Positions 967-38,035 of a stretch of DNA of 64,000 nt are shown here, piece by piece. The stretch is from Candidatus Poribacteria bacterium (GTDB lineage: Bacteria; Poribacteria; WGA-4E; WGA-3G): positions 1,733,811 to 1,797,810 of the forward strand of contig OZ241980.1 in assembly GCA_965204285.1 (NCBI GenBank). The letters are read 5' to 3'. The notes beneath the pieces were generated by a model, which worked only from the letters and a program-made list of their open reading frames with translations, was not told the origin of the DNA and did not search any database. Position numbers and translations under genes: made by a program. The first letter of the stretch is position 1. Each line of letters starts with the position of its first letter.

Positions 967-1479
967 CTAAACCGTGTAATTTTTTATAATCTCTTCATCC
1001 AGATTTTCTAAAACATCTTTTGCGTCAGGCTGCATTGGTTTCTCTTTTTTTACTTCCGCTTCAAGGAAACCGTTCTCTTCAATGACATTCTCCTCAACAT
1101 AGATCGGCACTTCACATCGGATTGCGAGAGCAAGCGCATCGCTCGGGCGAGAATCTATATCGTATTCCTGCCCATTCAATTCAAGTTTTACTTGTGCAAA
1201 GAAGGTTGATTTTTCAACGGCATTGATACAGATAGAATTTATCTTACCGGAGATTGTGTCAATAACATTCTTGAGCAGGTCGTGTGTCATTGGTCGTGGC
1301 AGATCAACTTTTTTCAATCGGTTCTCTATTGCCCATGCCTCCGATTCACCGATCCATATCAATAATATCCGTTTAGATTCGCCATCTTTTTCTTTTAAGA
1401 CGACAACCGGTGCGCCTGTATTTCGATCAACGGTCAGAAATTCAATTTTAACTTCGACCATGTTATTTCTCCTTTTCAA
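967..1479 (-). CDS. bifunctional nuclease domain (DUF151/BFN) protein
   Basis: 170 aa with the RPMTHDLL...DSRPSDALALA motifs characteristic of the DUF151 bifunctional nuclease fold. It sits in tandem with a paralog. Confidence 0.6.
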   Translation of the reverse strand: MKRRNNMVEVKIEFLTVDRNTGAPVVVLKEKDGESKRILLIWIGESEAWAIENRLKKVDLPRPMTHDLLKNVIDTISGKINSICINAVEKSTFFAQVKLELNGQEYDIDSRPSDALALAIRCEVPIYVEENVIEENGFLEAEVKKEKPMQPDAKDVLENLDEEIIKNYTV

Positions 1480-1903
1480 AGAATCCGTGTTTTTCGATCA
1501 CATCGTCTTCCACATAGATTGGTGCGTTAGAGCGGATTGCGATGGCAAGCGCATCACTCGGTCGCGAATCTATGTTGAGGTCTTGAATGTTGGATTTGAG
1601 TTTCACCTTTGCATAAAAGGTTGCGTTTTTAACAACATTGATGTAGATAGCCTCTACCTTGGCTGAAAGCGCGTCAATGATATTTTTCAGCAAATCATGA
1701 GTCATCGGACGCGGATGCTCCGTTTTTGCCAAAGCAGTTTTGATTGCTATCGCTTCATTCCTACCGATCCATATCAACATTTTTCGTTTAGGTTCACCTG
1801 TTATTTCTTGCAAAACGACTACCGGTACGCCATTGTTTTGGTCAACCGCCCCTGGCTTGTCATCCTGCTCAACAAGAATATCGTTGATTATAACTTCAAC
1901 CAT
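1463..1903 (-). CDS. bifunctional nuclease domain (DUF151/BFN) protein, paralog
   Basis: 146 aa with the same RPMTHDLLKN / DSRPSDALAIA motifs. It overlaps the downstream paralog by 17 bp. Confidence 0.6.
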   Translation of the reverse strand: MVEVIINDILVEQDDKPGAVDQNNGVPVVVLQEITGEPKRKMLIWIGRNEAIAIKTALAKTEHPRPMTHDLLKNIIDALSAKVEAIYINVVKNATFYAKVKLKSNIQDLNIDSRPSDALAIAIRSNAPIYVEDDVIEKHGFFEKEK

Positions 1904-5179: not shown

Positions 5180-5243
5180 GTAGGAGCGATCTCCGAATCG
5201 CGACGAAACGCTTTGATAGTCGGGGATTGGAGTTCCCTCCCGT
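5180..5243. repeat. REP-like palindromic element pair (GTAGGAGCGATCTCCGAATCGCGAC ... inverted variant)
   Basis: A-type unit at 5180-5204 and an inverted B-type unit at 5219-5241. Confidence 0.8.
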
Positions 5244-5340
5244 CAAATGCCATACGGGGAACGCCTTAATGGCGTTCATACCGTTGATTTGGCGCATTTG
5301 GCGTTGATTCACAGAAGATTCATTGATGCCGAGTGGGTGA

Positions 5341-5694
5341 TGGAGGTGGCGGGAATTGAACCCGCGTCCGAAAGCATATTGATAAAGGCTACTACATGTT
5401 TATCACAGGTTTTGAGTTTTCGCTGTCCAGACTCCCCTATGCGGGATTCATGGAGGCTATCTCAAGTTTAGGTTCACGGTATGTCCCTTGAGAACAATCA
5501 AACCGCTATCCCGTATTGCGGCGCTTTAGCTTCCCTGACGGGAAACAGGTTGGCCAAGCGTAGCTGCGTACTAAGCAGCTAATGCTAATTCTTGATCAGC
5601 AATTATAATTGTTCCGCCTATTTAACGAGGCCTGCGGAGACCTCGACATGCAACCTGTATCGCAATTACCTCCGTCGAAACCAAGGTCACCCCC
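5341..5694 (-). ncRNA. ssrA: tmRNA (ssrA)
   Basis: The reverse complement begins GGGGGUGACCUUGGUUUCGACGG and ends GGACGCGGGUUCAAUUCCCGCCACCUCCA. The tag reading frame ends ...ADQELALAA stop. Confidence 0.85.
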
Positions 5695-5712: not shown

Positions 5713-6174
5713 TTATGTATATTCTCGTATTTCTCGGTTAGCGTGTTCACGCTCAATTTTATCGCGCTTATCGTAGAATCGCTTCCCTTGTGCGACTGCT
5801 AATTCTACTTTTACCTTTCCGCCACTAAAGTAAGCACGTGTCGGAACTAAGGTCATTCCCTTTGACTGAACTGCTCGTGTCAATTTTCTTATTTCGTTAC
5901 GATGCAGCAAGAGTTTACGGGGACGTTTCGGTTCATGATTCATCCGATTTCCCTGATCATACAAACCGATAAACGCATCAATGAGAAATATCTCTCCGTC
6001 TGTTATTTGTGCGTAGCTGTCGGTCAGGTTAAACTGTCCGTTTCTAATCGCTTTTACTTCAGTCCCCTGCAAAACGATGCCTGCCTCATACCGATCGTGC
6101 AGATGATAGTCATAACGCGCTTTACGGTTGACAGTAATCGTTGGATTCTGTGGGGATTTCTTTTTATCTTTCAC
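5713..6174 (-). CDS. smpB: SsrA-binding protein SmpB
   Basis: KARYDYHL..EAGIVLQGTEVKAIRNG motifs. The longest ORF extends to 6246, but a GTG at 6174 with an AAGGG RBS gives the canonical ~154 aa length. Confidence 0.75.
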   Translation of the reverse strand: MKDKKKSPQNPTITVNRKARYDYHLHDRYEAGIVLQGTEVKAIRNGQFNLTDSYAQITDGEIFLIDAFIGLYDQGNRMNHEPKRPRKLLLHRNEIRKLTRAVQSKGMTLVPTRAYFSGGKVKVELAVAQGKRFYDKRDKIEREHANREIREYT

Positions 6175-6281
6175 AATAACCCTTATTTTACCATATATTA
6201 TATGAAGTGTGCAAGGAAAATGTGGTTTAATGGCAGAGGCATTCAATTTTCCAATTATTTCTTTTTTTTAAAACCTCTTCT

Positions 6282-6307: not shown

Positions 6308-6521
6308 CTTTCGACCAAAACGGGTTATAAACCGACAATTGAATGCCTCTGGCTATTAATTGGAATTAAGCGACTAATATGATTAATTTTGATAAATTAA
6401 GATAAAATAACACATTTTTTCACTTTATGCAACCTGTAGACCAAAAACTGTGTCTTTAATATCATAAATACGAAATGTATCAATTTTACTGAACTATTTA
6501 TCAAATATAAGGAGCAGAACA

Positions 6522-7307
6522 ATGAAAAGATTTGTCCTCTTACTATTTCTAATCATAGCACCAGGACTCGCAATAAGCGAACCACCAGAAGAGATGGTGC
6601 TGATATCCGCAGGGGAGTTTACGATGGGTACAGACGATCCGAATGCATCGGATGACCAGAAACCTACACGCAAAGTGAATGTAAAGGCTTTTTACATTGA
6701 CAAACACGAAGTTACAAACGCCGAATTTCAAGCATTTATCTTAGCAGATGGATACAATAAACAGGAATACTGGACAAAAGAAGGGTGGGATTTCATTCAG
6801 AAGGAACGATTTGTCTATAGTTATCCAGCAAAGAGAAAGTATCGGATTGACAAACCACTCGGTTTTGAGGGAAATTCTGTATCACGAGAACCTGACCATC
6901 CCGTTATTGGGGTAAGTTGGTATGAGGCTTCTGCTTATGCTGTATGGGCAGGCAAACGTCTACCGACCGAGGCAGAATGGGAGAAGGCTGCCAGAGGCAC
7001 TGATGCACGTCTCTATCCGTGGGGTAACGATTTTGATTTTTCCAAGCTAAATTATTTCCCCCATCACGAAAAGTTATCTCCTGTTGGGAGTTATCCAGAT
7101 GGCGCGAGTCCTTATGGTGTGCTGGATATGGCAGGTAATGTTGCTGAATGGTGCGCGGATAATATCCAAGATGATGATAAAAAGGCCGTTCGCGGTGGTG
7201 GATGGAATTCTGTCCGATTACATCTGCGTTCCACCCATCGCGTAGCACATCCACCTTCATATAGATATTATAACATCGGTTTCAGATGTGCAAAGGATAT
7301 TGAGTAG
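6522..7307 (+). CDS. formylglycine-generating enzyme (SUMF1/FGE-sulfatase) family protein, secreted
   Basis: Signal peptide followed by GVSWYEA..YAVWAGKRLPTEAEWE..GNVAEW..RGG..W and a RCA C-terminal motif. AAGGAG RBS. Confidence 0.75.
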   Translation: MKRFVLLLFLIIAPGLAISEPPEEMVLISAGEFTMGTDDPNASDDQKPTRKVNVKAFYIDKHEVTNAEFQAFILADGYNKQEYWTKEGWDFIQKERFVYSYPAKRKYRIDKPLGFEGNSVSREPDHPVIGVSWYEASAYAVWAGKRLPTEAEWEKAARGTDARLYPWGNDFDFSKLNYFPHHEKLSPVGSYPDGASPYGVLDMAGNVAEWCADNIQDDDKKAVRGGGWNSVRLHLRSTHRVAHPPSYRYYNIGFRCAKDIE

Positions 7308-7462
7308 GAGCGATCTCCGAATCGCGATGGTAGGAGCGAGCGATCTCCGAATCACGATGGTAGGAGCGAGCGATCTCCGAATCGCGATGGTAGATAATCG
7401 GGAATCGGAGTTCCCTCCTACAATGAGCAACATGACGGGGGACGATCTCCGAATCGAGAACT
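7304..7462. repeat. tandem array of REP-like units (3 A-type units, period ~33 bp, plus inverted B-type unit and a partial copy)
   Basis: gtaggagcgatctccgaatcgcgatg occurs three times, followed by tcgggaatcggagttccctcctaca. Confidence 0.8.
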
Positions 7463-7502
7463 ACATACATAGATTACAAAATCATATATGAGGGTAATTA
7501 GC

Positions 7503-8519
7503 ATGCATAGAATAATTATTATGACTCTTCTAATTTTATTCTCCTTCTACAACTTGAACTATGCAGAAGACATCTCAATAGAAGAACTCATACGCGGCAT
7601 CAATAAGCAGCAAATAAAGATTCTGAGTGGTGAAGTCTATTCCAAAACCATGAATTTCAGACCCGCTTCAAAAACTGAAGAGGAGATCGCTGAATGGATG
7701 AAGACAGAAAAGAAAAAGAAGTTATTAGAATACATTCCCAGTGAACCCGATCTGGATGTTGATGTAAAACAGTATGAAACAGAATATCTCATACCTTATC
7801 TGAACTCCTGGGCAAATCGTTATCGTGAACACACAGAGACAGAACTTAAGACAACAATCTTCCGCGTCCTAAATCCAGATGATGAGAAACTTCCAAAACA
7901 AGATCAATATAAGGTAACGGTGGTAAGGAATCCAGGGCATCCGATAGATAGGATGTCGGAGTTGTATATACCATCAGATAGTATCTATCTACTTGCCTTT
8001 GATACGTACAAGCAGGTGAAACAACGTATAGGTAACATTCTCTTTTCAAGTAGTTCTTCATCTGCTGTAAGTTTTTATGATTCCAATTATCACGGAGGTT
8101 ATTTGAAGTTTGCTAAGTTTGGCAGGTCACCTGATCGTGTTCCATCCGATGCTAAAGAAATTGGTGAAGAACAGATAGACGGTGTGGATTGTCGTATCAT
8201 CACTTATACCTCCCCAAGGGGACTGAAAGTTCGGGTGTGGGTTGATCCTGAAAAAGATTTTGCTGTTCATCAATTTGAATATCTACATCCTACAAAGGGA
8301 AATGTTCGCTGGCGGAGTGTTTATAAAGCGTTCAAAAAATATGGAGATTTATGGTTTCCCAAAATCTTAATAGGCAGTTCCTATTTTGAAGATGGATCAT
8401 TGCGAAATCACTATACAGTTGAAGTAATTGATGCGGAATTCAATGTTAGTTTTCCCGAAGATTTTTTTGATATTGATAGAGATTTTTATAAGCCGCGGAA
8501 TTTTATATTTAATCAATAA
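7503..8519 (+). CDS. secreted protein of unknown function, paralog 1 of 3 (possible LolA/RseB-like fold)
   Basis: Signal peptide. Shared motifs with the ORFs at 8623 and 10722: EELIxGxNK..SGEVYSKT, TEEEIAEW, YLxP..NRYRxH, WVDPEKD(F/Y)AVH, DAEFNV(S/D)FP(E/D)xFF. The start is placed at the second ATG (GAGGG RBS); the track starts at 7488. Confidence 0.55.
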   Translation: MHRIIIMTLLILFSFYNLNYAEDISIEELIRGINKQQIKILSGEVYSKTMNFRPASKTEEEIAEWMKTEKKKKLLEYIPSEPDLDVDVKQYETEYLIPYLNSWANRYREHTETELKTTIFRVLNPDDEKLPKQDQYKVTVVRNPGHPIDRMSELYIPSDSIYLLAFDTYKQVKQRIGNILFSSSSSSAVSFYDSNYHGGYLKFAKFGRSPDRVPSDAKEIGEEQIDGVDCRIITYTSPRGLKVRVWVDPEKDFAVHQFEYLHPTKGNVRWRSVYKAFKKYGDLWFPKILIGSSYFEDGSLRNHYTVEVIDAEFNVSFPEDFFDIDRDFYKPRNFIFNQ

Positions 8520-8525
8520 ACTCGT

Positions 8526-8584
8526 GGGATCGATCTCCGAATCGTGACAATATTCTATTCGGGAATCGGAGTTCCCTCCTACAG
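8526..8584. repeat. REP-like inverted pair
   Basis: gatcgatctccgaatcgtgac ... tcgggaatcggagttccctcctacag. Confidence 0.75.
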
Positions 8585-8622
8585 AACGTATACAGTAAAC
8601 TAATACTGAAGGAGAATTCAAA

Positions 8623-10653
8623 ATGTCCAGAAATGTTTTGGCTATCATAATCGTCATGCTGTTATCTATTAACACAATATGCTACGCAGCAGACATGCCC
8701 ACATACGAACTCATCCAACGTGTAAATTTGGCACGCTGGGACATCAGAAGCGGCGAAGTCCAAGCAGAAATATCTACTGAAAATGCTGCTCGAAAAACGG
8801 AAGAAGAAATTACCGAATCTATAAAAAAGAGTATAGAAGATGAGTTGAAAAGTTATGCGCCACTTGAAGGCGTTGACAAGGAAACGTTTGAGAAAGAATA
8901 TCTCATACCGAATGCGAATTACAATGCAAATCGGTATCGCAAACATACAGAAGTAGAACACAAATCAACGCTATTTCAGATTATTGAACCAGATACCGCT
9001 GGCTTCCCTAAACTTTTCCAATATAAATTAATATTGGAGAGGTCACCCGGATATTCTTTAGATAGTGAAGTCGCACAGAATCACCATGCAAGTGAATTAC
9101 TCATTCTTGCTTATGACATTGAAACTCAAGTAAGGCAATCTATTGGGAATCTGATATCTCCCATGAGTTCAGTTGAGATAGAGGATTCTACTGTATGGTA
9201 TGGATATACGCCTTATTCGCTATTTGGAAGGTCGTTTTTCAAAGTGCCAATGGATGCGCAATTCGTTGGAAAAGAAAACATTGATGGAGCGGAATGTTAT
9301 GTCTTGGAATTTACGAACGTTTACGAGCAGAAAAACAGAATTTGGGTGGATGAATCCCTTCGCTATTGTATACGCAAGTTTGAATCTTTAGGTGCCGCTG
9401 AAACAGACGCTATATCTTATCGTGTAGAGAATAAAGACTTTCAGAAATTCGATGAGATGTGGTTTCCTATGCATATACAAGAAACCTATTATAAAAAAGA
9501 TGGATCAATACGTGAGCGTCTTACCAACAAAATCGCTTCTGCAGAGTTTAATGTCGATTTTCCAAAGGATTTCTTTAAGATAGATAGAAACCGATATGAA
9601 CCTCGCAGAACCGGACCACCATCACCTTCCTCTGAGATGCTTCTGCTGAGCGGTCTAAACAGTCTGGCGCACTATTGTAAATTGCTAAAGGTTGAAACGG
9701 ATATTCAAGAACTTATGCGGCTGTCAGATTTCGATCCAGCACAAGGCACTACGATGAGCGAATTGAGAAAGGCTGCCGTTGCCAAGGGCATACCGCTAAC
9801 AAGTATAGAGACATCACTGGATTCGCTGAAACGGAATTTGGTGTCGTTGCCAGCTATCACTTATGTGGATACCAACCATTTTCTTATCTTTGAATCTGCG
9901 GATAGGGACGGTGTGAAAGTCGTTGATCCATTTTACAAGTATTATCCGTATCTGACTTGGGCAGAAGTCTCTAAGATATGGAGTGGTGAACTGCTTGTCT
10001 TTGATAAGATGGACGGCCAGCAAGCGATACCGATGCAGGTGCCGATGGTCTACGCAGACGAAACAGTTTTCAACTTCGGAAGAGCGTTCGGTGGTAGTCA
10101 AGTTCAACACACTTTTGCTGTCAAAAACATCGGTCAAAAACCGTTGAATATTCTTGACATTACCGAAACATGTGCATGTACTGCAACCGTCCTGTCACAA
10201 AATGAAGTTCTACCTGGTGAAATAGGTACAGTTTTAGCAACCATGAAGATTTATCCTGGAAATGGCATGATGCAAGAATACATACACTTACATACGGATG
10301 ATCCGACACAGAACACATTGACATTTACACTTACAGGACAAGCATTTACACCGCTCAAAACGTTACCCGATATGGTAGCATTCGGGCAAAGAAAATTGCT
10401 TCTCAATCAACCCATAACGAAGCGGGTTTCCATACACTTACAAAAGAATACGAAAATACTGAATGTAAGAACCGATTCGGAGCATATCAAAGCAACATTG
10501 GAGACAAAGAGTGGTATTCCGCATGCAAATCTACAATTTATACCGACCTTTCCTATTGGGAAATTTAATCAATACCTTATGGTTGATTATGAACATAAAG
10601 GCCAGAAAGCCACTCACATAGTTTACATTCATGGCGAGATATTAGAGAACTAA
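8623..10653 (+). CDS. secreted multidomain paralog 2: shared N-domain + C39-like (Cys->Ser) peptidase-like domain + DUF1573-like domain
   Basis: The N-terminal ~330 aa is homologous to the neighbours. The middle region (LLLSGLNSLAHYC..ITYVDTNHFLIFE) resembles a papain-like C39 domain. The C-terminal region (FGRAFGG..KNIGQKPLNILDITETCACTA) resembles DUF1573. Confidence 0.5.
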   Translation: MSRNVLAIIIVMLLSINTICYAADMPTYELIQRVNLARWDIRSGEVQAEISTENAARKTEEEITESIKKSIEDELKSYAPLEGVDKETFEKEYLIPNANYNANRYRKHTEVEHKSTLFQIIEPDTAGFPKLFQYKLILERSPGYSLDSEVAQNHHASELLILAYDIETQVRQSIGNLISPMSSVEIEDSTVWYGYTPYSLFGRSFFKVPMDAQFVGKENIDGAECYVLEFTNVYEQKNRIWVDESLRYCIRKFESLGAAETDAISYRVENKDFQKFDEMWFPMHIQETYYKKDGSIRERLTNKIASAEFNVDFPKDFFKIDRNRYEPRRTGPPSPSSEMLLLSGLNSLAHYCKLLKVETDIQELMRLSDFDPAQGTTMSELRKAAVAKGIPLTSIETSLDSLKRNLVSLPAITYVDTNHFLIFESADRDGVKVVDPFYKYYPYLTWAEVSKIWSGELLVFDKMDGQQAIPMQVPMVYADETVFNFGRAFGGSQVQHTFAVKNIGQKPLNILDITETCACTATVLSQNEVLPGEIGTVLATMKIYPGNGMMQEYIHLHTDDPTQNTLTFTLTGQAFTPLKTLPDMVAFGQRKLLLNQPITKRVSIHLQKNTKILNVRTDSEHIKATLETKSGIPHANLQFIPTFPIGKFNQYLMVDYEHKGQKATHIVYIHGEILEN

Positions 10654-10721
10654 GGCATCAACCGGACGCATCACATTTTGAGCAAATCCTCTCAACAAAA
10701 AATTGGAATAGGAGATAAACC

Positions 10722-11729
10722 TTGTATAAAAACGCAATCACAATTATTATAACATTACTGTTTTTCGTTTCTGTATCCTCGTTAGCGGATATATCCGTAG
10801 AAGAATTGATCAACGGTGTGAACAAGGCACGACTTACAATCAAAAGCGGCGAGGTTTATTCCAAAACGATAGAAGAAAGTGAAGCACGAAAAACTGAGGA
10901 AGAGATCGCTGAATGGATCAAAACGGAGAAGGAGGAGGAATTAAGACGTTTCATTCCCTTGCAATTATCTCCTGATGTTGATAAGGAAAAGTATGAAGCA
11001 GAATATCTCAAAGCGTCTCTTGAAGATCGGTCTCGAGGGTATCGTAAACACAAGAATATTAGCCGGACGACAACACTCTTTAAAGTTCTGAAGGCAGGTG
11101 ACTTGTCCCAAAAACCTCAATACCAGTATAAGTTAACGCTGGTTGACTCACCAGGAGTTCCACTTGATGAGATGTCAAGCCGATTCAGACCGTCAGATGA
11201 TATTTTTCTCCTCGTTTACGATAAGCAAACACAAGTCCGAGAATCTATAGGAGATATTATCTTTTCCTTAGATCATCCATCTGGTATTACTTTTTATGAT
11301 AGGAGTCAACATGGAGGGTATCCTAATTTTCACTTTTGGGGTAGATCGGGGTACTTTGTTCCACCCGATGCAAAACATATCGGAACAGAGAAGATTAACG
11401 GTGTGGAATGCCATATCCTTGCATTTACCGCATCAGACAGTCGGAGAATCAAAATATGGATTGATCCTGAAAAAGATTATGCAGTCCATAGGATTGACCA
11501 TATACATCCCACAATGGAACTGGTCTTTTGGCGGAGTTTTTATAAACAGTTCGTCAAGTATGGGGATATCTGGTTTCCGCAGGTTCATGTTGGTAATACT
11601 TTTTTCCGGGATGGCAGGGTATTGAGAACGATTACAGATGAAGTGGTTGATGCGGAATTTAATGTTGATTTTCCCGATGGTTTTTTTGAGTTTGAACGAG
11701 AATATTATAAGCCGCAGGATATGGAGTAG
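10722..11729 (+). CDS. secreted protein of unknown function, paralog 3 of 3
   Basis: TTG start with an AGGAG RBS and a signal peptide. It carries the same conserved motifs as paralogs 1 and 2. Confidence 0.55.
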   Translation: MYKNAITIIITLLFFVSVSSLADISVEELINGVNKARLTIKSGEVYSKTIEESEARKTEEEIAEWIKTEKEEELRRFIPLQLSPDVDKEKYEAEYLKASLEDRSRGYRKHKNISRTTTLFKVLKAGDLSQKPQYQYKLTLVDSPGVPLDEMSSRFRPSDDIFLLVYDKQTQVRESIGDIIFSLDHPSGITFYDRSQHGGYPNFHFWGRSGYFVPPDAKHIGTEKINGVECHILAFTASDSRRIKIWIDPEKDYAVHRIDHIHPTMELVFWRSFYKQFVKYGDIWFPQVHVGNTFFRDGRVLRTITDEVVDAEFNVDFPDGFFEFEREYYKPQDME

Positions 11730-11750
11730 GAGCGATCTCCGAATAGCGAT
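11726..11750. repeat. REP-like unit (GTAGGAGCGATCTCCGAATAGCGAT)
   Basis: Single degenerate A-type unit overlapping the stop of the ORF at 10722. Confidence 0.6.
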
Positions 11751-11792
11751 TGCATTCCTAACAATACGCGACAAAAATCATGAGGTAGCAAT

Positions 11793-14462
11793 ATGGAAGA
11801 TAACACTGTCCAACTCGTCAACAGGATTTTAACTGGTGAAGAGGAAGCATTTAGCATATTAGTACGGAAATATCAGAAGAGAATCCACGCCCTCGCTTGG
11901 CGGAAGATTGGGGACTACCATATCGCCGAAGAGATAACACAAGATACCTTCATCCGAGTATACAAAAACCTGTCCGAACTAAAAAACCCAAAACTATTTG
12001 ATGGATGGCTTTTCGTTATTACAAACAATCTATGCAAAAATTGGCTCGAAAGGAATAAAGACACGATGCCATTTTTGGAAGATGTTTCTATTGAAGAGAG
12101 AAATAGAACTTATCATACACAATACCAATCAGAGCAACGTATGACAGAAATTAGAGAACATTACCGTGAAGTTGCCAAGAAGCTTCTGGAAAAATTACCG
12201 GAGAGTGAACGCACTGTCATTACCCTCTATTATCTCAGCGAAATGTCCGTAAAAGATATAGGTAATTTCTTAGGTGTATCCGCCAACACCATCAAAAGTA
12301 GGCTGCATCGGGCAAGAAACCGATTAGAAGCGGAAGAACACCTTTTGATGTCTGAAGCATTTGGGGGTTTACAACTCTCTACAGATCTCACCGAAAACAT
12401 CATGAAGCAGATTGCAGACATAAAACCGACACCACAAGTAGCAAAACCATTACTACCGTGGATGGCTTTTGGCACTGCTGCGGTTTTGGTTATATTATTG
12501 CTGGGTGCAATGAGTCAACGGCTTGGTCTTATTCAAAAACCGTATGACTTTAATGCCCAATCAGAAGCAACGATTGAAATTGTTGAATCTCCTATACACC
12601 TCAATATTGTTTCTGAACCTGATCTACGCAATCAAATGGGGAAGAGTATTATTGATGGAAATATTGATGGTGATGAATCACAGGTATCTGAAGCGGTCTT
12701 TATGAATAATGCCCATGAGAATGTTACACATTTATCGTCAGTATGGAAACAGACAAATGTACCACAAGGAGACCCTGTCTATAATATCTTTGCTACCTCA
12801 AATGGTAATCTCTACGCATTTTCCTGGACTGGTGTTTACAAATTAAGCAGAGGCACGACATCATGGAGAAATATCAGCGCAAGCATACCTACAAATATCG
12901 TCGGGGCGCCAATCGCTGAATATCAGGGGACGCTATATGTTGTTGGTAGCGATAATATATACGCCTCAACTGATGATGGCATCTCATGGCAAGTATTTTC
13001 TTCCCGTCCAATTGGAAAACTTATCGGATTCGTCATAAGGGATAAAACATTCGAACGAAAATTACGCACAAGTTTTGTCATGTATGTTGCCACACAGGAT
13101 AAAGGGGTATTTCGGTCTACCGATGCTGGTAGAAAATGGACTCTACTTAATGACAGCTTGACAAATAAAAAGATAACAGCAATTGCCGCGATGGGTAATG
13201 CTGTGTTTATTGGCACGAACCAAGGGCTTTATCGCTTGATTTCAGATGATTTGGAACGGTTATCTATGGTGGATAATACGGACAACGCAATCCACGCATT
13301 GGCAGTTGATGAGAATAACCTTTATGTAGCAACGGGGCAAGATTTTCTTATCCATGACTTTTCCGATGCAAAAAATAGAGAGACTCGTAAGATATCCCAC
13401 TCAACGAACCTCGGTATGACGTGGACTGATATAACGCCTAAAGATAAATATTTCATGATCGGCACATCTCCTGCAAGCCCAACTCGTATTATAGCAAAAG
13501 GTTCAATGTTATTCGTTTTAGGTATCCCAACATTTCAATCAACAGATGCGGGGCAAACGTGGATACACTTTGGCTTTGACAGTAAATCATTCTCATCATC
13601 TAATGCAACCGTTTTGGCAGTGGATGAGAATACCTTTTACAAGTTGGATAAGTTCAGCATTCATCGCACAATTGATAGTGGCACAACGTGGCATCCTTTC
13701 ATGAATGGAATTGTCGGAACAGATGTCCAGGAGTTGATTGTATTTAACAATCGGCTCTATGTGTATACAGGCAGCGACATTTATGAAATGATGGACAACG
13801 AGAAAATATGGGTACCGGTGCGTTTTGATTATGGGCAGTTTATATCTGAACAGCTTGGACAGTCGGGGTCTTATGTACATCATCTTACGGATTCCAAGTT
13901 TGTGATTGATGGCAAATCTCTTTACCTGATTTCATCACAAGGTGAGGATTTAGACATTTTTCGTTTACGCACAGGTGAAGCTGCGTTTTCGCTTGTTCAA
14001 AAAATCTCTTCTCGGAAACTATGGACAAACGCCAAATCATCATCCACTACACTGCTCTCTGAAGGCAAACAGAATATCAAATTCACAGAAAATAACACCC
14101 TTTTCATAGCATACAAAAATAGACTTTTAAAATGGGATACGGAAAGTTTAATATTTACGGACACCGGCTTGATAGATACAAACTACTACCCTGATCATGA
14201 AATGGATATTGGATTCAAGATAGCTGCTTCATCACAAACCGTCTATGTCGGTAAACGAGATGGGAAACTATTTCAATCCATTAATGGCGGAGAAAGTTGG
14301 AGGGATATAACATTGAGTCTACCCTCAACCTTCACTCATATTAAGGATATCGTATTTGCTAATCTGAAGGTATATGTGGCAACAGATAAAGGTGTCTTAT
14401 GTTCGCAAACTGGCGAATATTGGCGTTGCTCACCAATGATGTTGGAAGACATATCGTCATAG
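11793..14462 (+). CDS. ECF sigma factor fused to TM helix and extracytoplasmic BNR/Asp-box beta-propeller (one-component sigma/sensor)
   Basis: Sigma-70 region 2 (FIRVYKNL..FDGWLFVITNN) and region 4 (ERTVITLYYLSEMSVKDIGNFLGVSANTIKSRLHRARNRL) are followed by a hydrophobic helix. After that come more than six S/T-x-D-x-G-x-(T/S)-W repeats (STDDGISW, STDAGRKW, STNLGMTW, STDAGQTW, TIDSGTTW, SINGGESW). Confidence 0.7.
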   Translation: MEDNTVQLVNRILTGEEEAFSILVRKYQKRIHALAWRKIGDYHIAEEITQDTFIRVYKNLSELKNPKLFDGWLFVITNNLCKNWLERNKDTMPFLEDVSIEERNRTYHTQYQSEQRMTEIREHYREVAKKLLEKLPESERTVITLYYLSEMSVKDIGNFLGVSANTIKSRLHRARNRLEAEEHLLMSEAFGGLQLSTDLTENIMKQIADIKPTPQVAKPLLPWMAFGTAAVLVILLLGAMSQRLGLIQKPYDFNAQSEATIEIVESPIHLNIVSEPDLRNQMGKSIIDGNIDGDESQVSEAVFMNNAHENVTHLSSVWKQTNVPQGDPVYNIFATSNGNLYAFSWTGVYKLSRGTTSWRNISASIPTNIVGAPIAEYQGTLYVVGSDNIYASTDDGISWQVFSSRPIGKLIGFVIRDKTFERKLRTSFVMYVATQDKGVFRSTDAGRKWTLLNDSLTNKKITAIAAMGNAVFIGTNQGLYRLISDDLERLSMVDNTDNAIHALAVDENNLYVATGQDFLIHDFSDAKNRETRKISHSTNLGMTWTDITPKDKYFMIGTSPASPTRIIAKGSMLFVLGIPTFQSTDAGQTWIHFGFDSKSFSSSNATVLAVDENTFYKLDKFSIHRTIDSGTTWHPFMNGIVGTDVQELIVFNNRLYVYTGSDIYEMMDNEKIWVPVRFDYGQFISEQLGQSGSYVHHLTDSKFVIDGKSLYLISSQGEDLDIFRLRTGEAAFSLVQKISSRKLWTNAKSSSTTLLSEGKQNIKFTENNTLFIAYKNRLLKWDTESLIFTDTGLIDTNYYPDHEMDIGFKIAASSQTVYVGKRDGKLFQSINGGESWRDITLSLPSTFTHIKDIVFANLKVYVATDKGVLCSQTGEYWRCSPMMLEDISS

Positions 14463-14692
14463 ATAAACTCGTTGTGGACGGATTAAGTTTATATGGTGTA
14501 GGGAGTATGGGCATTTATCGCTTAGATTCTGATAGTAAATGGGATCAGATTTCTTCAAGTATCCCTGATAAAGTGCTATCTGTAGCGGTGAGTAGTGATA
14601 AACTTTATATTGCTACAAAACAGCGTGGGATTTTCCATATTTTGCTTGAGGAAAAACCTCTAAAAATTGATGATATCATTAGTTTCCGTTAA
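14399..14692 (+). pseudogene. out-of-frame 3' continuation of the propeller domain (probable frameshift in or near 14440-14462)
   Basis: The -1 frame ORF encodes LYGVGSMGIYRLDSDSKWDQISSSIP...LYIATKQRGIF, which matches the blade motif of the upstream gene. Confidence 0.45.
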
Positions 14693-14740: not shown

Positions 14741-16009
14741 TTACGTGTCTGTTCTGAGAGCATCAATGGGGGACATCCGTGATGCACGCATTGCGGGATA
14801 GATCCCAAAACACACCCCCATGAAAATGGAGAAAATCACAGAGATTAGTATCCAAAACAAAGAGAGAACAACTGGCCACTCTGGCACAATCGGCAGAATT
14901 CGCACGGCAAGCCTTGCCATGCCGTGTGCTGCAAACCATCCACCTATAATGCCGAGAACCGCACCGCAGAAACAGAGACATATCGATTCTGTTAAGAATT
15001 GCAAGAAGATATGAAGGCGTTTCGCACCTACAGATTTACGCAAACCTATCTCTCGGGTTTTTTCACCTACAGAAACAAGACCCATATTCATAACACTAAT
15101 ACCGCTAACAAATAGGGAAATGCCAGCAATTCCGCCTAACGCAATTTTTATCACCTTTTCAATATGCTCAAGTCGTCGGATGTTAACTTTCGGTATCCCA
15201 AAACCAATAAAGTCATCTTTTCCTCTGTGTCTTTTACGCAGGACATCCTTAACAGAATCGATGATATTATAAACATCCGCGTCCTTTTCAAAAAAGACAG
15301 TGAGGTTGTCAATATAGCGGTTGCTAAAAATCCGTTGTTGGCGTGTTGTCAACGGCACGCAAATCGTTTCATCCAAAGAACGCCAGGAGCTGACGCTGCT
15401 GCCTTTTGTTTTCATCACACCGACAACCCACAACCTTACCGCGGGGTTCTGCCACGAAAAACGCACTTTCACCTCTCGTCCAAGCGGTGATTTTTCTCCA
15501 AATAACTCATTGGCAATATTTGCACCTAAGACGCAGACCTGTGTTGCGTTTTCAATATCGTTTTTAGAGAGGAATCTACCGGCTTGCACTTCCCATTGCA
15601 TACCGAGGGCATAATCTGCTGTGACACCCTCCAGATGTGGAGCGGGATAGCTTCCGTATCGGTTGGAAACATGGTATGGACGGAATCTTTCGTTTTTCGG
15701 TAAGACAAATAAAACGTTGGGACATTCAGCCTCAATAGTATAGGCATCTTCAAGGGTATATCGTTCGGTAGTGCGTCGCACGAACCGTCCGCTTTTCCAA
15801 ATAGATGTGCGTGTCCAAAATTGAACTTGATTTGCACCCCCAAGTTTCTCAATATCTCTCGCGATGAGAAGTTTCGCGCCATCGCCGATTGCCATCATAC
15901 ATAACACACTCGCAACCCCAATGAAAATACCGAGAATAGATAAACCAGCGCGTAGTTTATTTCGAGCAAGGTGTGCAATACCTATGGTGATAGCATCACG
16001 TAGTTTCAT
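14741..16009 (-). CDS. ABC transporter permease, MacB/FtsX family
   Basis: An N-terminal TM helix, a large periplasmic domain and a C-terminal FtsX-like four-helix region (GEKTREIGLRKSVGA). There is no adjacent ATPase. The start is uncertain (TTG at 16033 or ATG at 16009). Confidence 0.65.
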   Translation of the reverse strand: MKLRDAITIGIAHLARNKLRAGLSILGIFIGVASVLCMMAIGDGAKLLIARDIEKLGGANQVQFWTRTSIWKSGRFVRRTTERYTLEDAYTIEAECPNVLFVLPKNERFRPYHVSNRYGSYPAPHLEGVTADYALGMQWEVQAGRFLSKNDIENATQVCVLGANIANELFGEKSPLGREVKVRFSWQNPAVRLWVVGVMKTKGSSVSSWRSLDETICVPLTTRQQRIFSNRYIDNLTVFFEKDADVYNIIDSVKDVLRKRHRGKDDFIGFGIPKVNIRRLEHIEKVIKIALGGIAGISLFVSGISVMNMGLVSVGEKTREIGLRKSVGAKRLHIFLQFLTESICLCFCGAVLGIIGGWFAAHGMARLAVRILPIVPEWPVVLSLFWILISVIFSIFMGVCFGIYPAMRASRMSPIDALRTDT

Positions 16010-16255
16010 ATATTCTTTTGAATGCTCTTGCAAAAGGACATCATCAGGTTTTAGCTTTGTGTTTCGCTTGCTGCCTAACCTAACTTATATTCAATTACAT
16101 GAATCCGAATGTTATAAAGAGGGGAATTTTGGACGAAAAGGTTTAAAAAACTAAAAAGTGTGTTTGCCGAAGTAGGGATTTTGGCAAACATACTTTTAGG
16201 AATAAAGCACGGGTTTTGGCAAAAACGGGACTTTTGCGTGAGTCTAATTGGAAAT

Positions 16256-30019: not shown

Positions 30020-30216
30020 TGTAGGAGCGACCTCCTGGTCGTGCCCCTTCCGAATAAAACCCCAAAAACACTAAACTATAGTGGATTATAGAAATAATTT
30101 TACATTTCCTCTGTAGGAGCGATCTCCGAATCGCGACTTATCTTTGATTCGATGTAGTCGGGAATCGGAGTTCCCTCCTACTGGATAGTGTCTCCTCTTG
30201 TAGGAGCGACCCTGTC
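30020..30216. repeat. cluster of REP-like units (variant unit, A-unit + inverted B-unit, partial unit)
   Basis: Variant unit at 30020-30045. An A-unit at 30112-30137 and an inverted B-unit at 30157-30181 together form a 70-nt hairpin. A partial unit lies at 30199-30216. Confidence 0.8.
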
Positions 30217-31288: not shown

Positions 31289-31385
31289 TGTAAGAGCGAT
31301 CTCCGAATCGCGACTTTCTCCTATGTAGGAGCGATCTCCGAATCGCGACTTTCTCCTATGTAGGAGCGATCTCCGAATCGCGACT
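31289..31385. repeat. three tandem 36-bp REP-like units without spacers
   Basis: gtaggagcgatctccgaatcgcgactttctcctat occurs three times; the first copy is gtaaGag. Confidence 0.85.
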
Positions 31386-37973: not shown

Positions 37974-38035
37974 GTAGGAGAGAACTCCGATTCCCGACTG
38001 TTCCTACAGTTCGGTCGCGATTCGGAGATCGCTCG
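37974..38035. repeat. REP-like inverted pair (B-unit + inverted A-unit)
   Basis: gtaggagagaactccgattcccgac ... gtcgcgattcggagatcgctc. Confidence 0.8.

What the first reader, a model, noticed from the sequence alone, without database searches (positions are those of the whole stretch)
7503..14692. Three tandem paralogous secreted proteins upstream of a one-component ECF sigma/TM/BNR-propeller fusion
Genes at 7503, 8623 and 10722 encode signal-peptide proteins sharing a ~330-aa domain of unknown function. They are separated by hairpin repeats and immediately precede an 889-aa protein. In that protein an ECF sigma factor (regions 2 and 4 intact) is covalently joined, through one TM helix, to an extracytoplasmic Asp-box beta-propeller. 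A sigma factor that is its own membrane-anchored sensor, with no separate anti-sigma, is a rare architecture, described mainly for Planctomycete-type ECFs. The adjacent paralog triplet could be ligands, chaperones or RseB-like modulators. Function and signalling mechanism are unknown (proteolytic release of the sigma domain is one possibility).
Basis: partly seen in the sequence, partly recalled or inferred. Interest (0 to 1): 0.7.

Follow-up and report, generated by a model that had tools for sequence, protein, structure and literature searches.

The report
Membrane-anchored sigma factor operon in Poribacteria
A sponge-symbiont (Poribacteria) operon ends in a sigma factor fused through one membrane helix to a periplasmic double beta-propeller sensor; this fusion type has hundreds of copies across the phylum, and the three LolA-like proteins upstream look more like its regulated output than like its regulators.

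Summary
Three secreted paralogs (36-48% identical) precede an ECF sigma / one TM helix / Asp-box propeller fusion. Four points need correcting.

1. The 889-aa ORF is cut short by a 1-nt deletion at 14426/14427. Orthologs are 965-966 aa, and ORF 14399-14692 encodes the missing blades.
2. The paralog domain has a LolA-superfamily fold. The middle paralog also carries a C39-like domain (Ser replaces the catalytic Cys) and a DUF1573 domain.
3. The hairpin repeats are dispersed across the window, not specific to this locus.
4. The fusion is not rare in this phylum. At least 544 relatives were found in one-per-species reference genomes, all 80 listed from Poribacteria, with several copies per genome and about 20 orthogroups.

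A promoter-like dyad (TGCACCCTT-N15-GTCTTTAAT) recurs upstream of these fusions. Its only match in the window (6428) lies 94 nt before the FGE-like gene. This suggests one operon: FGE-like, three paralogs, then the sigma fusion.

The neighbouring genes differ between orthogroups (PD40 arrays, Laminin_G, LolA-like). The paralogs are therefore more likely regulated cargo than RseB-like modulators.

The most likely mechanism, which is inferred and not shown, is that a ligand binds the propellers, regulated proteolysis releases the sigma domain, and the operon is autoregulated. I rate it a new variant of a known kind.

The parts
6428..6460 (+). ECF-type promoter-like dyad TGCAACCTG-N15-GTCTTTAAT, 94 nt upstream of the first gene of the cluster
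   Evidence: This is the only match in the 64-kb window on either strand (shuffles give a mean of 0.2). It is conserved at the same position in L001, L007, L008 and L088. The dyad was found by enrichment upstream of fusion genes: 22 of 79 sequences against a shuffle maximum of 8.
6522..7307 (+). Secreted FGE-sulfatase-fold protein (261 aa), first gene of the putative operon
   Evidence: Pfam FGE-sulfatase, 198.8 bits. It has an N-terminal hydrophobic segment. It is the first gene in all four orthologous loci. It is also paired with parB-like genes in L086-L089.
7308..7459 (+). Dispersed REP/MITE-like repeats: three tandem 30-nt units plus GGGAATCGGAGTTCCC
   Evidence: The same repeats occur at 5186, 30119, 31296-31366, 38015 and 58612 in the window. 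The fold z-score is only -1.4.
7503..8519 (+). parA: secreted LolA-superfamily protein (338 aa; an alternative start at 7488 gives 343 aa)
   Evidence: (LolA_like 20 bits, below threshold).
8528..8583 (+). Dispersed repeat copy between parA and parB
8623..10653 (+). parB (676 aa): LolA-like domain (8623-9627), C39-like domain (9652-10008; Ser343 at the catalytic Cys position), DUF1573 domain (10054-10338; T-C-A-C-T loop) and a C-terminal segment with no family assignment
   Evidence: Pfam Peptidase_C39 49.5 bits, DUF1573 53 bits. A profile alignment to PCAT1 places the invariant Ser on Cys21, with His and Asp conserved. The C-terminal part is collinear with the L006-type C39-DUF1573 proteins.
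10722..11729 (+). parC: secreted LolA-superfamily protein (335 aa)
   Evidence: AF2 model with pLDDT 73.8. Foldseek top hits are 3BUU, 9TP6 (LolA3), 4Z48 and 3BK5, with E 4e-10 to 2e-8. Pfam DUF2092 24.1 bits.
11730..11759 (+). Dispersed repeat copy between parC and the sigma fusion
11793..14462 (+). ECF sigma / TM / double beta-propeller fusion, truncated ORF (889 aa). Sigma region 2 is 11859-12059, sigma region 4 is 12177-12326, the TM helix is about 12447-12521, the conserved juxtamembrane segment is about 12522-12662, and the propellers run from about 12744
14426..14427 (+). Site of the 1-nt deletion (orthologs read CGT ATG/CCG CTC; the window reads CGT-TGCTC) that shifts the frame
   Evidence: DNA alignment with L001, L007 and L008. 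Protein comparison with P0002 and P0007.
14429..14692 (+). Out-of-frame continuation encoding the last 87 residues (about two blades) of the propeller; still an intact ORF
   Evidence: Reconstruction gives 966 aa, matching the orthologs.

Best explanation
The region is one operon of about 8.3 kb (6428-14692) in a Candidatus Poribacteria genome. An ECF-type promoter is followed by five genes: a secreted FGE-fold protein, three secreted LolA-superfamily paralogs, and a membrane-anchored ECF sigma factor. The middle paralog also carries a C39-like domain and a DUF1573 domain.

The sigma protein has its sigma domain in the cytoplasm. It is joined through two short helices and one highly conserved TM helix to a periplasmic tandem beta-propeller that resembles GH74 enzymes and Bacteroides hybrid two-component sensor domains.

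Proposed mechanism:
1. The double propeller senses an extracytoplasmic ligand, most plausibly a glycan or matrix polymer.
2. This triggers cleavage in the conserved juxtamembrane segment, followed by intramembrane cleavage of the TM helix.
3. The freed sigma domain binds RNA polymerase and transcribes its own operon from the TGCA(A/C)CC..N15..GTCTTTAAT promoter.

On this reading the LolA-like proteins and the FGE-like protein are the output (cargo) of the system, not conserved parts of the signalling machinery. The C39-like/DUF1573 part of parB may be an accessory partner of the sensor.

Shown: gene content, fusion architecture, folds, family expansion, the recurrent dyad motif and the frameshift.
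Inferred: promoter function, autoregulation, ligand type, proteolytic release and the cargo role.

In this genome the sigma gene as assembled lacks its last two blades. It is either recently inactivated or mis-assembled.
For: - Architecture and topology.
- The fusion is real and full length is about 965 aa.
- The family is Poribacteria-wide. At least 544 relatives were found; all 80 listed loci and all named hits are Poribacteria. Up to 5 loci per genome appear in the top 80, forming about 20 orthogroups at 60% identity.
- The AF2 model shows sigma region 2, sigma region 4, two helices and a confident propeller region. Foldseek top hits are GH74 xyloglucanases (E 4e-22, TMt 0.44), then BT4663/BT4673 periplasmic sensor domains (E about 1e-17).
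- Dyad motif: it is enriched upstream of the fusions. There are 111 hits in 65 of 84 loci. Thirty lie directly upstream of the fusion and 38 lie upstream of a same-strand gene preceding it. The window has a single hit, in front of the FGE-like gene, conserved in the orthologs.
- Sigma regions 2 and 4 are 68-71% identical between orthogroups and the sigma-4 recognition helix is 73% identical, which fits a shared promoter.
- The TM helix is 68% identical between orthogroups, against 47-49% for the propellers.
- Same-strand gaps are 63-195 nt, with no terminator-like site between the genes.
- Cargo varies between orthogroups: PD40 arrays of up to 8 copies, Laminin_G_3, 3-keto-disaccharide hydrolase, Kelch and ABC-2.
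- LolA-like genes lie next to the fusion in only 4 of 85 loci.
- The FGE-like + parB-like pair also occurs in a different cluster (glutaredoxin-like, STT3-like) with no sigma fusion in the sequence available.
- Precedent for proteolytic activation of sigma/anti-sigma hybrids: IutY and SCO4117 (PMC8999054).
Against: - No experiment or transcript data supports the promoter. The dyad could instead bind another regulator or a different sigma factor.
- About 20 orthogroups share nearly the same motif, which is hard to reconcile with insulated autoregulation.
- No site-1 or site-2 protease gene lies in the 64-kb window.
- The conserved juxtamembrane segment is modelled with very low confidence (pLDDT 23-40), so a cleavage or binding role is a guess.
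- The ligand class rests on fold resemblance only (about 15% identity).
- Regulators such as rseB are also co-transcribed with their sigma factor, so operon membership alone does not exclude a modulator role for the paralogs.
- C39-like/DUF1573 genes sit next to the fusion in two non-sister orthogroups. Part of parB may therefore be signalling machinery rather than cargo.
- The gene as assembled is frameshifted and may be non-functional.
Confidence: 0.55

Rival explanations
1. RseB-like modulator model. One or more LolA-like paralogs bind the periplasmic part of the sigma fusion and gate its proteolysis, as RseB gates RseA cleavage. A hydrophobic ligand held in the LolA-like cavity would relieve the block.
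For: The paralogs share the LolA/RseB superfamily fold; RseB and MucB appear among the Foldseek hits at E about 1e-5. They are co-transcribed with the sigma gene, as rseB is. The C39-like/DUF1573 part of parB is adjacent to the fusion in two non-sister orthogroups. In L006 it overlaps the fusion's stop codon.
Against: The best structural matches are NE2245, LolA3 and DUF1329, not RseB (TM 0.2-0.3 for RseB). There was no hit to any RseB/MucB Pfam family. LolA-like genes accompany the fusion in only one of about 20 orthogroups. parB-like genes also occur in another conserved cluster with no sigma fusion in the sequence available. Three or four diverged copies are hard to explain as a single stoichiometric modulator.
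Confidence: 0.15
2. Signalling without proteolysis. The sigma domain stays tethered to the membrane. Its availability to RNA polymerase is switched by a ligand-induced conformational change or dimerisation passed through the conserved TM helix and the two pre-TM helices, as in ToxR/CadC-type or hybrid two-component sensors.
For: The TM helix is as conserved as the sigma domains (68%, with invariant P222, W223, A229 and L235). The pre-TM helices are 57% identical. The closest sensor-domain analogues, BT4663/BT4673, signal by conformational change in dimers (the signalling mode is established knowledge). There is no recognisable anti-sigma domain to be degraded.
Against: A sigma factor has to join core RNA polymerase and act at promoters anywhere on the chromosome. 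Characterised TM-anchored sigma hybrids are reported to be activated by proteolysis (PMC8999054). A conserved TM helix is equally expected for a site-2 protease substrate.
Confidence: 0.15
3. Decaying locus. In this genome the sigma fusion is a pseudogene created by the frameshift, and the cluster is no longer regulated as described. The paralog genes are then expressed from other signals or are themselves relics.
For: The 1-nt deletion is not in a homopolymer (CGTATGC to CGTTGC). It removes 87 residues, about two blades, which should break propeller closure.
Against: The downstream 87 codons are still an intact ORF, nearly identical in protein sequence to the orthologs. This points to a very recent change or a sequencing error. 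A related long-read assembly, L007, has three split genes in 22 kb, so such errors are common in these assemblies. The other four genes of the cluster are intact in the window, and in L001 and L008 the whole cluster, including the fusion, is intact.
Confidence: 0.15

Closest known systems
IutY of Pseudomonas putida (sigma/anti-sigma hybrid, group ECF243)
   Same: One polypeptide with an N-terminal ECF sigma, one TM segment and a periplasmic C-terminal domain. It is reported to be activated by regulated proteolysis (Prc, then RseP), which frees the sigma domain (PMC8999054).
   Different: IutY is FecI/FecR-type and works with a TonB-dependent transducer. Here there is no FecR-like domain and no transducer gene, the periplasmic part is a double beta-propeller, and the family is confined to Poribacteria.
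ECF52 (SCO4117), ECF48 and ECF53 of Actinobacteria
   Same: An ECF sigma with a C-terminal extension containing TM helices and an extracytoplasmic domain, which is carbohydrate-binding in SCO4117. Proteolytic activation has been proposed (PMC8999054).
   Different: Those proteins carry a zinc-finger (ZAS-type) anti-sigma element after sigma region 4. The fusion here has no H-x3-C-x2-C motif and only three Cys residues. The phylum and sensor fold also differ.
ECF57 / Planctomycete ECFs with WD40-like extensions
   Same: A long C-terminal extension with beta-propeller-type repeats and several copies per genome (5.3 per planctomycetal genome; PMC7826278).
   Different: Group membership could not be tested because no ECF-group models were available. 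The repeats here are Asp-box/BNR type in a tandem propeller behind one TM helix, and the family was detected only in Poribacteria.
Bacteroides hybrid two-component system sensors (BT4663, BT4673)
   Same: A periplasmic tandem beta-propeller sensor joined through the membrane to a cytoplasmic transcription output in one protein. They regulate adjacent genes for secreted or surface proteins. Foldseek E is about 1e-17.
   Different: Their output is a histidine kinase, receiver and AraC domain, not a sigma factor. The Reg_prop Pfam hit here is below threshold (15.7 against 20.4 bits) and TM-scores are only 0.2-0.3.
GH74 xyloglucanases
   Same: The best structural match for the extracytoplasmic domain: two seven-bladed Asp-box propellers (E 4e-22, TMt 0.44).
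   Different: Identity is about 15%. Catalytic residues were not assessed. GH74 enzymes are secreted enzymes and are not membrane-tethered to a sigma factor.
LolA-superfamily proteins of the PF17131 type (NE2245 3BUU, P. gingivalis LolA3 9TP6) and RseB/MucB
   Same: The paralogs share the open beta-barrel LolA fold. RseB belongs to the same superfamily and modulates an ECF pathway.
   Different: Pfam scores are below threshold (20-24 against 30 bits). The paralogs have an insertion of about 70 aa that is poorly modelled (residues 126-199). LolA3 itself has no assigned function (PMC13103446). The match to RseB is weak.
C39 peptidase domain of PCAT1 and the non-catalytic C39-like domains of HlyB-type transporters
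   Same: A profile alignment covers the whole domain, with His and Asp conserved.
   Different: The catalytic Cys is replaced by an invariant Ser and the oxyanion Gln is absent. The domain is periplasmic, sitting behind a signal peptide, and is not the cytoplasmic N-terminus of an ABC exporter.
Tt-TolB anti-sigma factor of Thermoanaerobacter tengcongensis
   Same: An ECF regulator annotated TolB; TolB-type proteins carry PD40 beta-propellers (PMC3397946, seen; abstract only).
   Different: It is a separate anti-sigma protein and is not fused to the sigma factor.

Membership tests
ECF (group 4) sigma-70 factors | Sigma regions 2 and 4 present, regions 1.1 and 3 absent | tested here: met
   Sigma70_r2 48.5 bits (cutoff 24). 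Sigma70_r4_2 54.2 bits (cutoff 25.7). TIGR02937 sigma70-ECF 92.9 bits (cutoff 42.9). No region 3 or region 1 hits.
ECF (group 4) sigma-70 factors | Assignment to a named ECF group (ECF Hub group HMMs) | not testable with these tools
   No group models were available. The NCBIfam equivalogs (SigW, RpoE and others) all score far below their cutoffs.
FecI/FecR-type sigma/anti-sigma hybrids (IutY-like) | FecR-like periplasmic domain and a TonB-dependent transducer partner | tested here: not met
   No FecR or DUF4974 hit in the fusion. No TonB-dependent receptor was recognised among the window ORFs, though most of them were not scanned against Pfam.
ECF48/52/53-type fused ZAS anti-sigma | Zinc-binding H-x3-C-x2-C anti-sigma motif between sigma region 4 and the TM helix | tested here: not met
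   The regex finds no such motif. Cys occurs only at positions 81, 870 and 879. No Pfam family hits residues 181-320 even at E of 10 or less.
RseB/MucB | MucB_RseB N- and C-terminal domains (sequence family) | tested here: not met
   No RseB/MucB family among the Pfam hits at E of 0.1 or less. The structural match is E about 1e-5 with TM 0.2-0.3, weaker than to LolA-like proteins.
RseB/MucB | Binds the periplasmic domain of its anti-sigma factor and blocks site-1 cleavage | not testable with these tools
   Needs binding assays or complex prediction.
LolA_like / TP_0789-like (PF17131), LolA superfamily | Sequence match above the Pfam gathering score | tested here: not met
   20.0, 24.1 and 20.2 bits against a cutoff of 30 for parA, parB and parC. 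Some relatives at 41-48% identity do carry a precomputed PF17131 hit.
LolA_like / TP_0789-like (PF17131), LolA superfamily | Open, unclosed beta-barrel with a helical plug (LolA fold) | tested here: met
   For the AF2 model (pLDDT 73.8), the top seven distinct PDB hits are LolA-superfamily proteins with E 4e-10 to 1e-6 and TMt 0.53-0.57.
Peptidase C39 | Domain-level sequence match | tested here: met
   49.5 bits against a cutoff of 22. The profile matches the PCAT1 peptidase domain at E 2e-6.
Peptidase C39 | Catalytic Cys-His-Asp triad with an oxyanion-hole Gln | tested here: not met
   Ser343 aligns with PCAT1 Cys21 in all 10 aligned sequences. His and Asp are conserved. There is no Gln six residues upstream.
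GH74 glycoside hydrolases | Tandem seven-bladed propellers | tested here: inconclusive
   GH74 structures are the best Foldseek hits, but TM is only 0.33-0.46 and identity about 15%. The blade count was not determined from coordinates.
GH74 glycoside hydrolases | Two catalytic Asp residues in the inter-propeller cleft | not tested
   No residue-level structural superposition was available.
Hybrid two-component system Reg_prop sensors | Reg_prop repeats above threshold | tested here: not met
   Reg_prop 15.7 bits against a cutoff of 20.4. There is structural resemblance only.

The most novel reading that the evidence does not exclude
Poribacteria have evolved their own class of one-component transmembrane sigma factors. 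Dozens of paralogous sensors per genome have diverged double-propeller ligand sites but near-identical sigma, TM and promoter specificity. Many different extracellular (host-matrix or glycan) signals would then converge on a shared promoter class that drives variable arrays of secreted binding proteins (PD40, Laminin_G, LolA-like). In some lineages a periplasmic Ser-His-Asp C39-like / DUF1573 (Cys or selenocysteine) protein would act as the dedicated site-1 protease or co-sensor.
Probability: 0.2. Interest if true: 0.75.

Novelty: new variant of a known kind. Interest (0 to 1): 0.5.

Why it matters
Sigma factors that act as their own membrane sensor are the least understood branch of ECF signalling. 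Only a few have been studied, such as IutY and SCO4117. This family offers hundreds of natural variants that share a sigma domain, a TM helix, a juxtamembrane motif and a candidate promoter but differ in their sensor propellers and in the neighbouring genes. That is useful material for working out how a signal crosses the membrane in such fusions. The sigma domain and promoter pair is also small enough to test in E. coli. For sponge-symbiont biology, it points to a major, undescribed way in which uncultivated Poribacteria may couple sensing of their surroundings to production of secreted binding proteins.

Tried and rejected
- A single-sequence PDB search with the C-terminal half of parB returned only designed repeat proteins and noise. 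A profile was needed.
- A Pfam scan of the sigma4-TM-juxtamembrane stretch and of the parB C-terminal 99 aa gave nothing, even at E of 10 or less.
- A word-based homolog search with the parB C-terminal module found only 2 proteins. The same search with parC found 21. Synteny therefore had to come from the genome and metagenome scans.
- The sigma-70 promoter and terminator consensus scan found fewer sites than in shuffles and nothing informative between the genes.
- Rfam found no RNA family inside the cluster. It found only a tmRNA and two tRNAs elsewhere in the window.
- Folding the repeat-rich intergenic region gave a stability no better than shuffles (z -1.4). I rejected the idea that the hairpins are a locus-specific regulatory element, because they are dispersed.
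- A motif search for a site-2 protease (HExxH plus NxxPxxxLDG) among window ORFs found none.
- I considered a functional link between the LolA-like genes and the adjacent LolC/E-type MacB permease (14741-16033, minus strand). That gene is absent from two of the four orthologous loci.
- The first single-linkage clustering of neighbouring genes chained unrelated families through the fusion protein. I redid it without the fusions.

Full report
**1. What is in the sequence**

Five consecutive ORFs lie on the + strand between 6522 and 14692.
- An FGE-sulfatase-fold protein at 6522-7307 (Pfam 198.8 bits).
- Three paralogs: parA 7503-8519, parB 8623-10653 and parC 10722-11729.
- An 889-aa ORF at 11793-14462.

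The paralogs share about 330 aa. Identity is 48% for A-C, 38% for A-B and 36% for B-C, with E 1e-69 to 1e-114. parB and parC begin with clearly hydrophobic signal-like segments; parA's is shorter and fell below the hydropathy cutoff used.

The 889-aa protein has sigma region 2 (residues 23-89) and region 4 (129-178) above the Pfam and TIGR02937 thresholds. It has one hydrophobic segment (216-248), five Asp boxes and Sortilin/BNR/DUF6242-type propeller hits.

**2. Corrections to the observation**

(a) The fusion gene is truncated. More than 100 homologs are about 965 aa long. The closest ones (P0002 at 89% identity, P0007) read ...GEYWR(M/P)LTDNVGRHIVIDK.... In the window that continuation is encoded out of frame by ORF 14399-14692.

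DNA alignment with three orthologous loci shows a single missing base between 14426 and 14427: CGT ATG CTC in the orthologs, CGT-TGCTC in the window. Reconstruction gives 966 aa. The deletion is not in a homopolymer, and the 87 downstream codons are intact. It is therefore either very recent or an assembly error. A related long-read assembly (L007) has three split genes in 22 kb, so an error is plausible.

(b) The intergenic hairpin repeats are real but not specific to this locus. GCGATCTCCGAATCGCGA has 16 copies and GGGAATCGGAGTTCCC has 6 copies across the 64-kb window. They usually occur as a pair about 35 nt apart. Their predicted folding is no better than that of shuffled sequence.

(c) parB carries an extra 340 aa: a Peptidase_C39-like domain (49.5 bits), a DUF1573 domain (53 bits) and a C-terminal segment with no family assignment.

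**3. Organism and family**

The exact 889-aa protein comes from a 5.08-Mb contig. All named homologs are from Candidatus Poribacteria.

I scanned one genome per species using the TM + propeller part as the query. Seventy-six of the 80 listed records are titled Poribacteria; the other four (three contigs of one MAG) are titled only 'uncultured bacterium'. Single chromosomes contributed up to five loci to the top 80.

The 85 loci fall into about 20 orthogroups at 60% identity. The window's orthogroup contains only WIN, L001, L007 and L008, at 85-89% identity.

Between orthogroups the identities by region are as follows.
- Sigma region 2: 68%.
- Sigma region 4: 71%.
- TM helix: 68%.
- The two pre-TM helices: 57%.
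- Juxtamembrane segment: 53%.
- Propellers: 47-49%.

P222, W223, A229 and L235 are invariant in the TM helix. The motif FQKPYxFxAxSEPTIEIVESP just after it is nearly invariant.

**4. Folds**

The parC model (pLDDT 73.8; residues 126-199 poorly modelled) matches LolA-superfamily structures best. The top hits are NE2245 (3BUU, E 4e-10), P. gingivalis LolA3 (9TP6), a DUF1329 protein (4Z48) and 3BK5. RseB and MucB appear only at E about 1e-5 with TM 0.2-0.3. Pfam LolA_like scores are below threshold. LolA3 itself has no assigned function (PMC13103446).

The model of the full-length ortholog shows sigma region 2, sigma region 4, two short helices (183-191 and 197-208), a low-confidence stretch at 211-315, and a well-modelled beta-propeller region from about 320 to 955. 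The best PDB matches are GH74 xyloglucanases (E 4e-22, TMt 0.44). Next come the periplasmic sensor domains of Bacteroides hybrid two-component systems BT4663 and BT4673 (E about 1e-17).

No anti-sigma domain family matches residues 181-320, and there is no ZAS motif.

**5. A shared promoter-like motif defines the unit**

A dyad search on the 250 nt upstream of 79 fusion genes found CACCCTT-N15-18-GTCT in about 22 sequences. The maximum in shuffles was 8. The aligned sites read tATGCAC(C/G)(C/T)TTT...AAAA...GT(C/A)TCTTTAAT and lie 70-250 nt before start codons.

Across 84 loci there are 111 matches in 65 loci. Thirty are directly upstream of the fusion and 38 are upstream of a same-strand gene that precedes it. 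Others lie in front of neighbouring PD40, Laminin_G or ABC-2 genes.

The window has exactly one match on either strand (shuffle mean 0.2). It is TGCAACCTG-N15-GTCTTTAAT at 6428, 94 nt upstream of the FGE-like gene. It is conserved at the same place in L001, L007, L008 and L088.

Its GCAAC / GTCT blocks resemble typical ECF promoter elements. That comparison rests on established knowledge of ECF promoters, not on a test here.

The same-strand gaps are 63-195 nt, and no terminator-like site lies between the genes. Together with the motif, this makes 6428-14692 the likely transcription unit. The sigma gene is last, as expected for an autoregulated ECF operon. Promoter function itself is inferred.

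**6. Are the paralogs regulators or cargo?**

An HMM built from the paralogs finds them next to the fusion only in the four orthologous loci, in three or four copies.

Other orthogroups are flanked instead by same-strand tandem arrays of other secreted proteins. These include PD40 propellers (up to eight copies), Laminin_G_3, 3-keto-disaccharide-hydrolase-like, Kelch, GT4 and ABC-2 components. Twenty-one of 85 loci have at least three tandem paralogs.

parB-like genes (LolA-like + C39-like + DUF1573, 41-49% identical) also occur in a different conserved cluster. Its order is glutaredoxin-domain protein, FGE-like, two small ORFs, parB-like, an STT3-like membrane protein and a methyltransferase. 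No sigma fusion lies in the few kb of flanking sequence available.

The FGE-like + LolA-like module is therefore an independent functional unit. In the window's lineage it sits under the family promoter. This favours a role as regulated output over a role as a conserved RseB-like modulator.

**7. A possible accessory partner**

C39-like + DUF1573 genes are adjacent to the fusion in two orthogroups that are not each other's closest relatives. In the window type they are fused to the LolA-like domain, upstream of the fusion. In the 13-locus L006 type they lie immediately downstream, and in L006 the start overlaps the fusion's stop codon.

In both groups the residue that aligns with the catalytic Cys21 of PCAT1 is an invariant Ser. 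His and Asp are conserved, and the oxyanion Gln is missing. This is either a non-catalytic binding domain or a serine-nucleophile variant. It remains the best candidate in the locus for a periplasmic protease or co-sensor, but that is speculation.

**8. Mechanism and comparison with known systems**

Sigma/anti-sigma hybrids are known. They include IutY (activated by Prc, then RseP), the actinobacterial ECF48/52/53 groups (zinc finger, TM helices and an extracytoplasmic domain) and ECF57, which has WD40-like extensions and several copies per planctomycetal genome (PMC8999054, PMC7826278).

The present family resembles these in principle. By analogy, the most likely mechanism is ligand-triggered cleavage in the juxtamembrane segment, intramembrane cleavage, and release of the sigma domain.

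It fails the defining features of the FecR-type and ZAS-type hybrids (see the membership tests). I could not classify it into an ECF group. My literature searches found no description of it in Poribacteria.

Functionally, the nearest analogue for the sensor is the Bacteroides hybrid two-component system: a periplasmic double propeller that senses a glycan and controls adjacent genes for secreted proteins. Here the output would be a sigma factor.

**9. Verdict**

- The architecture is a variant of a known kind and is common in this phylum.
- The paralogs are LolA-like cargo rather than demonstrated modulators.
- The phylum-wide expansion, the shared promoter-like dyad, the conserved TM and juxtamembrane elements and the variable cargo arrays appear undescribed and are experimentally tractable.
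- The local copy may be inactivated by a frameshift.

I score interest at 0.5 and rate it a new variant of a known kind.

Noticed in passing
L006 10994-12478 and the equivalent genes in L013, L014, L016, L018, L019, L023, L025, L026, L028, L038 and L046; the homologous loop in the window is about 10168-10182 (parB T-C-A-C-T): In all 12 loci the genes called 'Peptidase_C39' and 'DUF1573' are one reading frame, interrupted by a single in-frame TGA inside the DUF1573 CxC loop. In 11 of the 12 loci about 262 codons follow before the next stop; in L028 none was found within the 300 codons read. A hairpin lies 26-60 nt downstream of the TGA. This is probably a selenocysteine codon, and the proteins are probably mis-split. 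The window's parB has Cys residues there and gives a below-threshold hit (60 bits, cutoff 100) to the NCBIfam OS_HP2 (seleno)protein model.
   Followed up: partly
window 5186-5237, 7308-7459, 8528-8583, 11730-11759, 30119-30175, 31296-31383, 37980-38032, 58579-58629: A composite dispersed repeat (GCGATCTCCGAATCGCGA plus GGGAATCGGAGTTCCC about 35 nt apart, sometimes as tandem 30-35-nt units) occupies many intergenic regions. It looks REP/MITE-like, has no Rfam match, and its predicted folding is no better than shuffles.
   Followed up: partly
L085 619-5406; L086 446-6985; L089 836-10548; L087; L090: parB-like genes (LolA-like + C39-like + DUF1573, 690-816 aa) lie in a second conserved cluster with a glutaredoxin-domain protein, an FGE-like protein, an STT3-like (GT-C) membrane protein and a methyltransferase. 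This hints at a periplasmic protein- or lipid-linked glycan modification system of unknown function.
   Followed up: partly
L054 12301-22266; L051 12381-22316; L064 6384-9441 and 15077-20296; L034 711-8647: Other paralogs of the sigma fusion are flanked by same-strand tandem arrays of 5-8 secreted PD40 (TolB-like) propeller proteins of 320-390 aa. Some of these are preceded by the same promoter-like dyad.
   Followed up: partly
window 14741-16033 (-): A LolC/E- or MacB-type permease (MacB_PCD + FtsX, 430 aa) lies convergent with the cluster and has no adjacent ATPase gene. It is present here and, in split form, in L007, but absent from L001 and L008.
   Followed up: partly
window 6522-7307: The secreted FGE-sulfatase-fold protein appears to lack the paired catalytic Cys motif of true formylglycine-generating enzymes; its only Cys residues are at 211 and 256. 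This judgement relies on my recollection of the FGE motif and was not tested against a reference alignment.
   Followed up: no
window 5338-5694 (-) and 5713-6246 (-): A tmRNA gene (Rfam, 179.6 bits) lies directly next to smpB, just upstream of the cluster and divergent from it. This is an ordinary arrangement.
   Followed up: no
L007 8800-9303, 9434-12340, 12658-13933: In this related chromosome-level assembly, parC, the sigma fusion and the MacB-like gene are each split. This suggests a high frameshift rate in these long-read metagenome assemblies, which bears on how to read the window's own frameshift.
   Followed up: partly
window 52875-53636 and 53729-55225; also 967-1479 and 1463-1903 (-): Two further pairs of adjacent paralogous genes. 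The first pair share the N-terminus M(R/K)FFRNNWYWILGI. I did not examine them.
   Followed up: no
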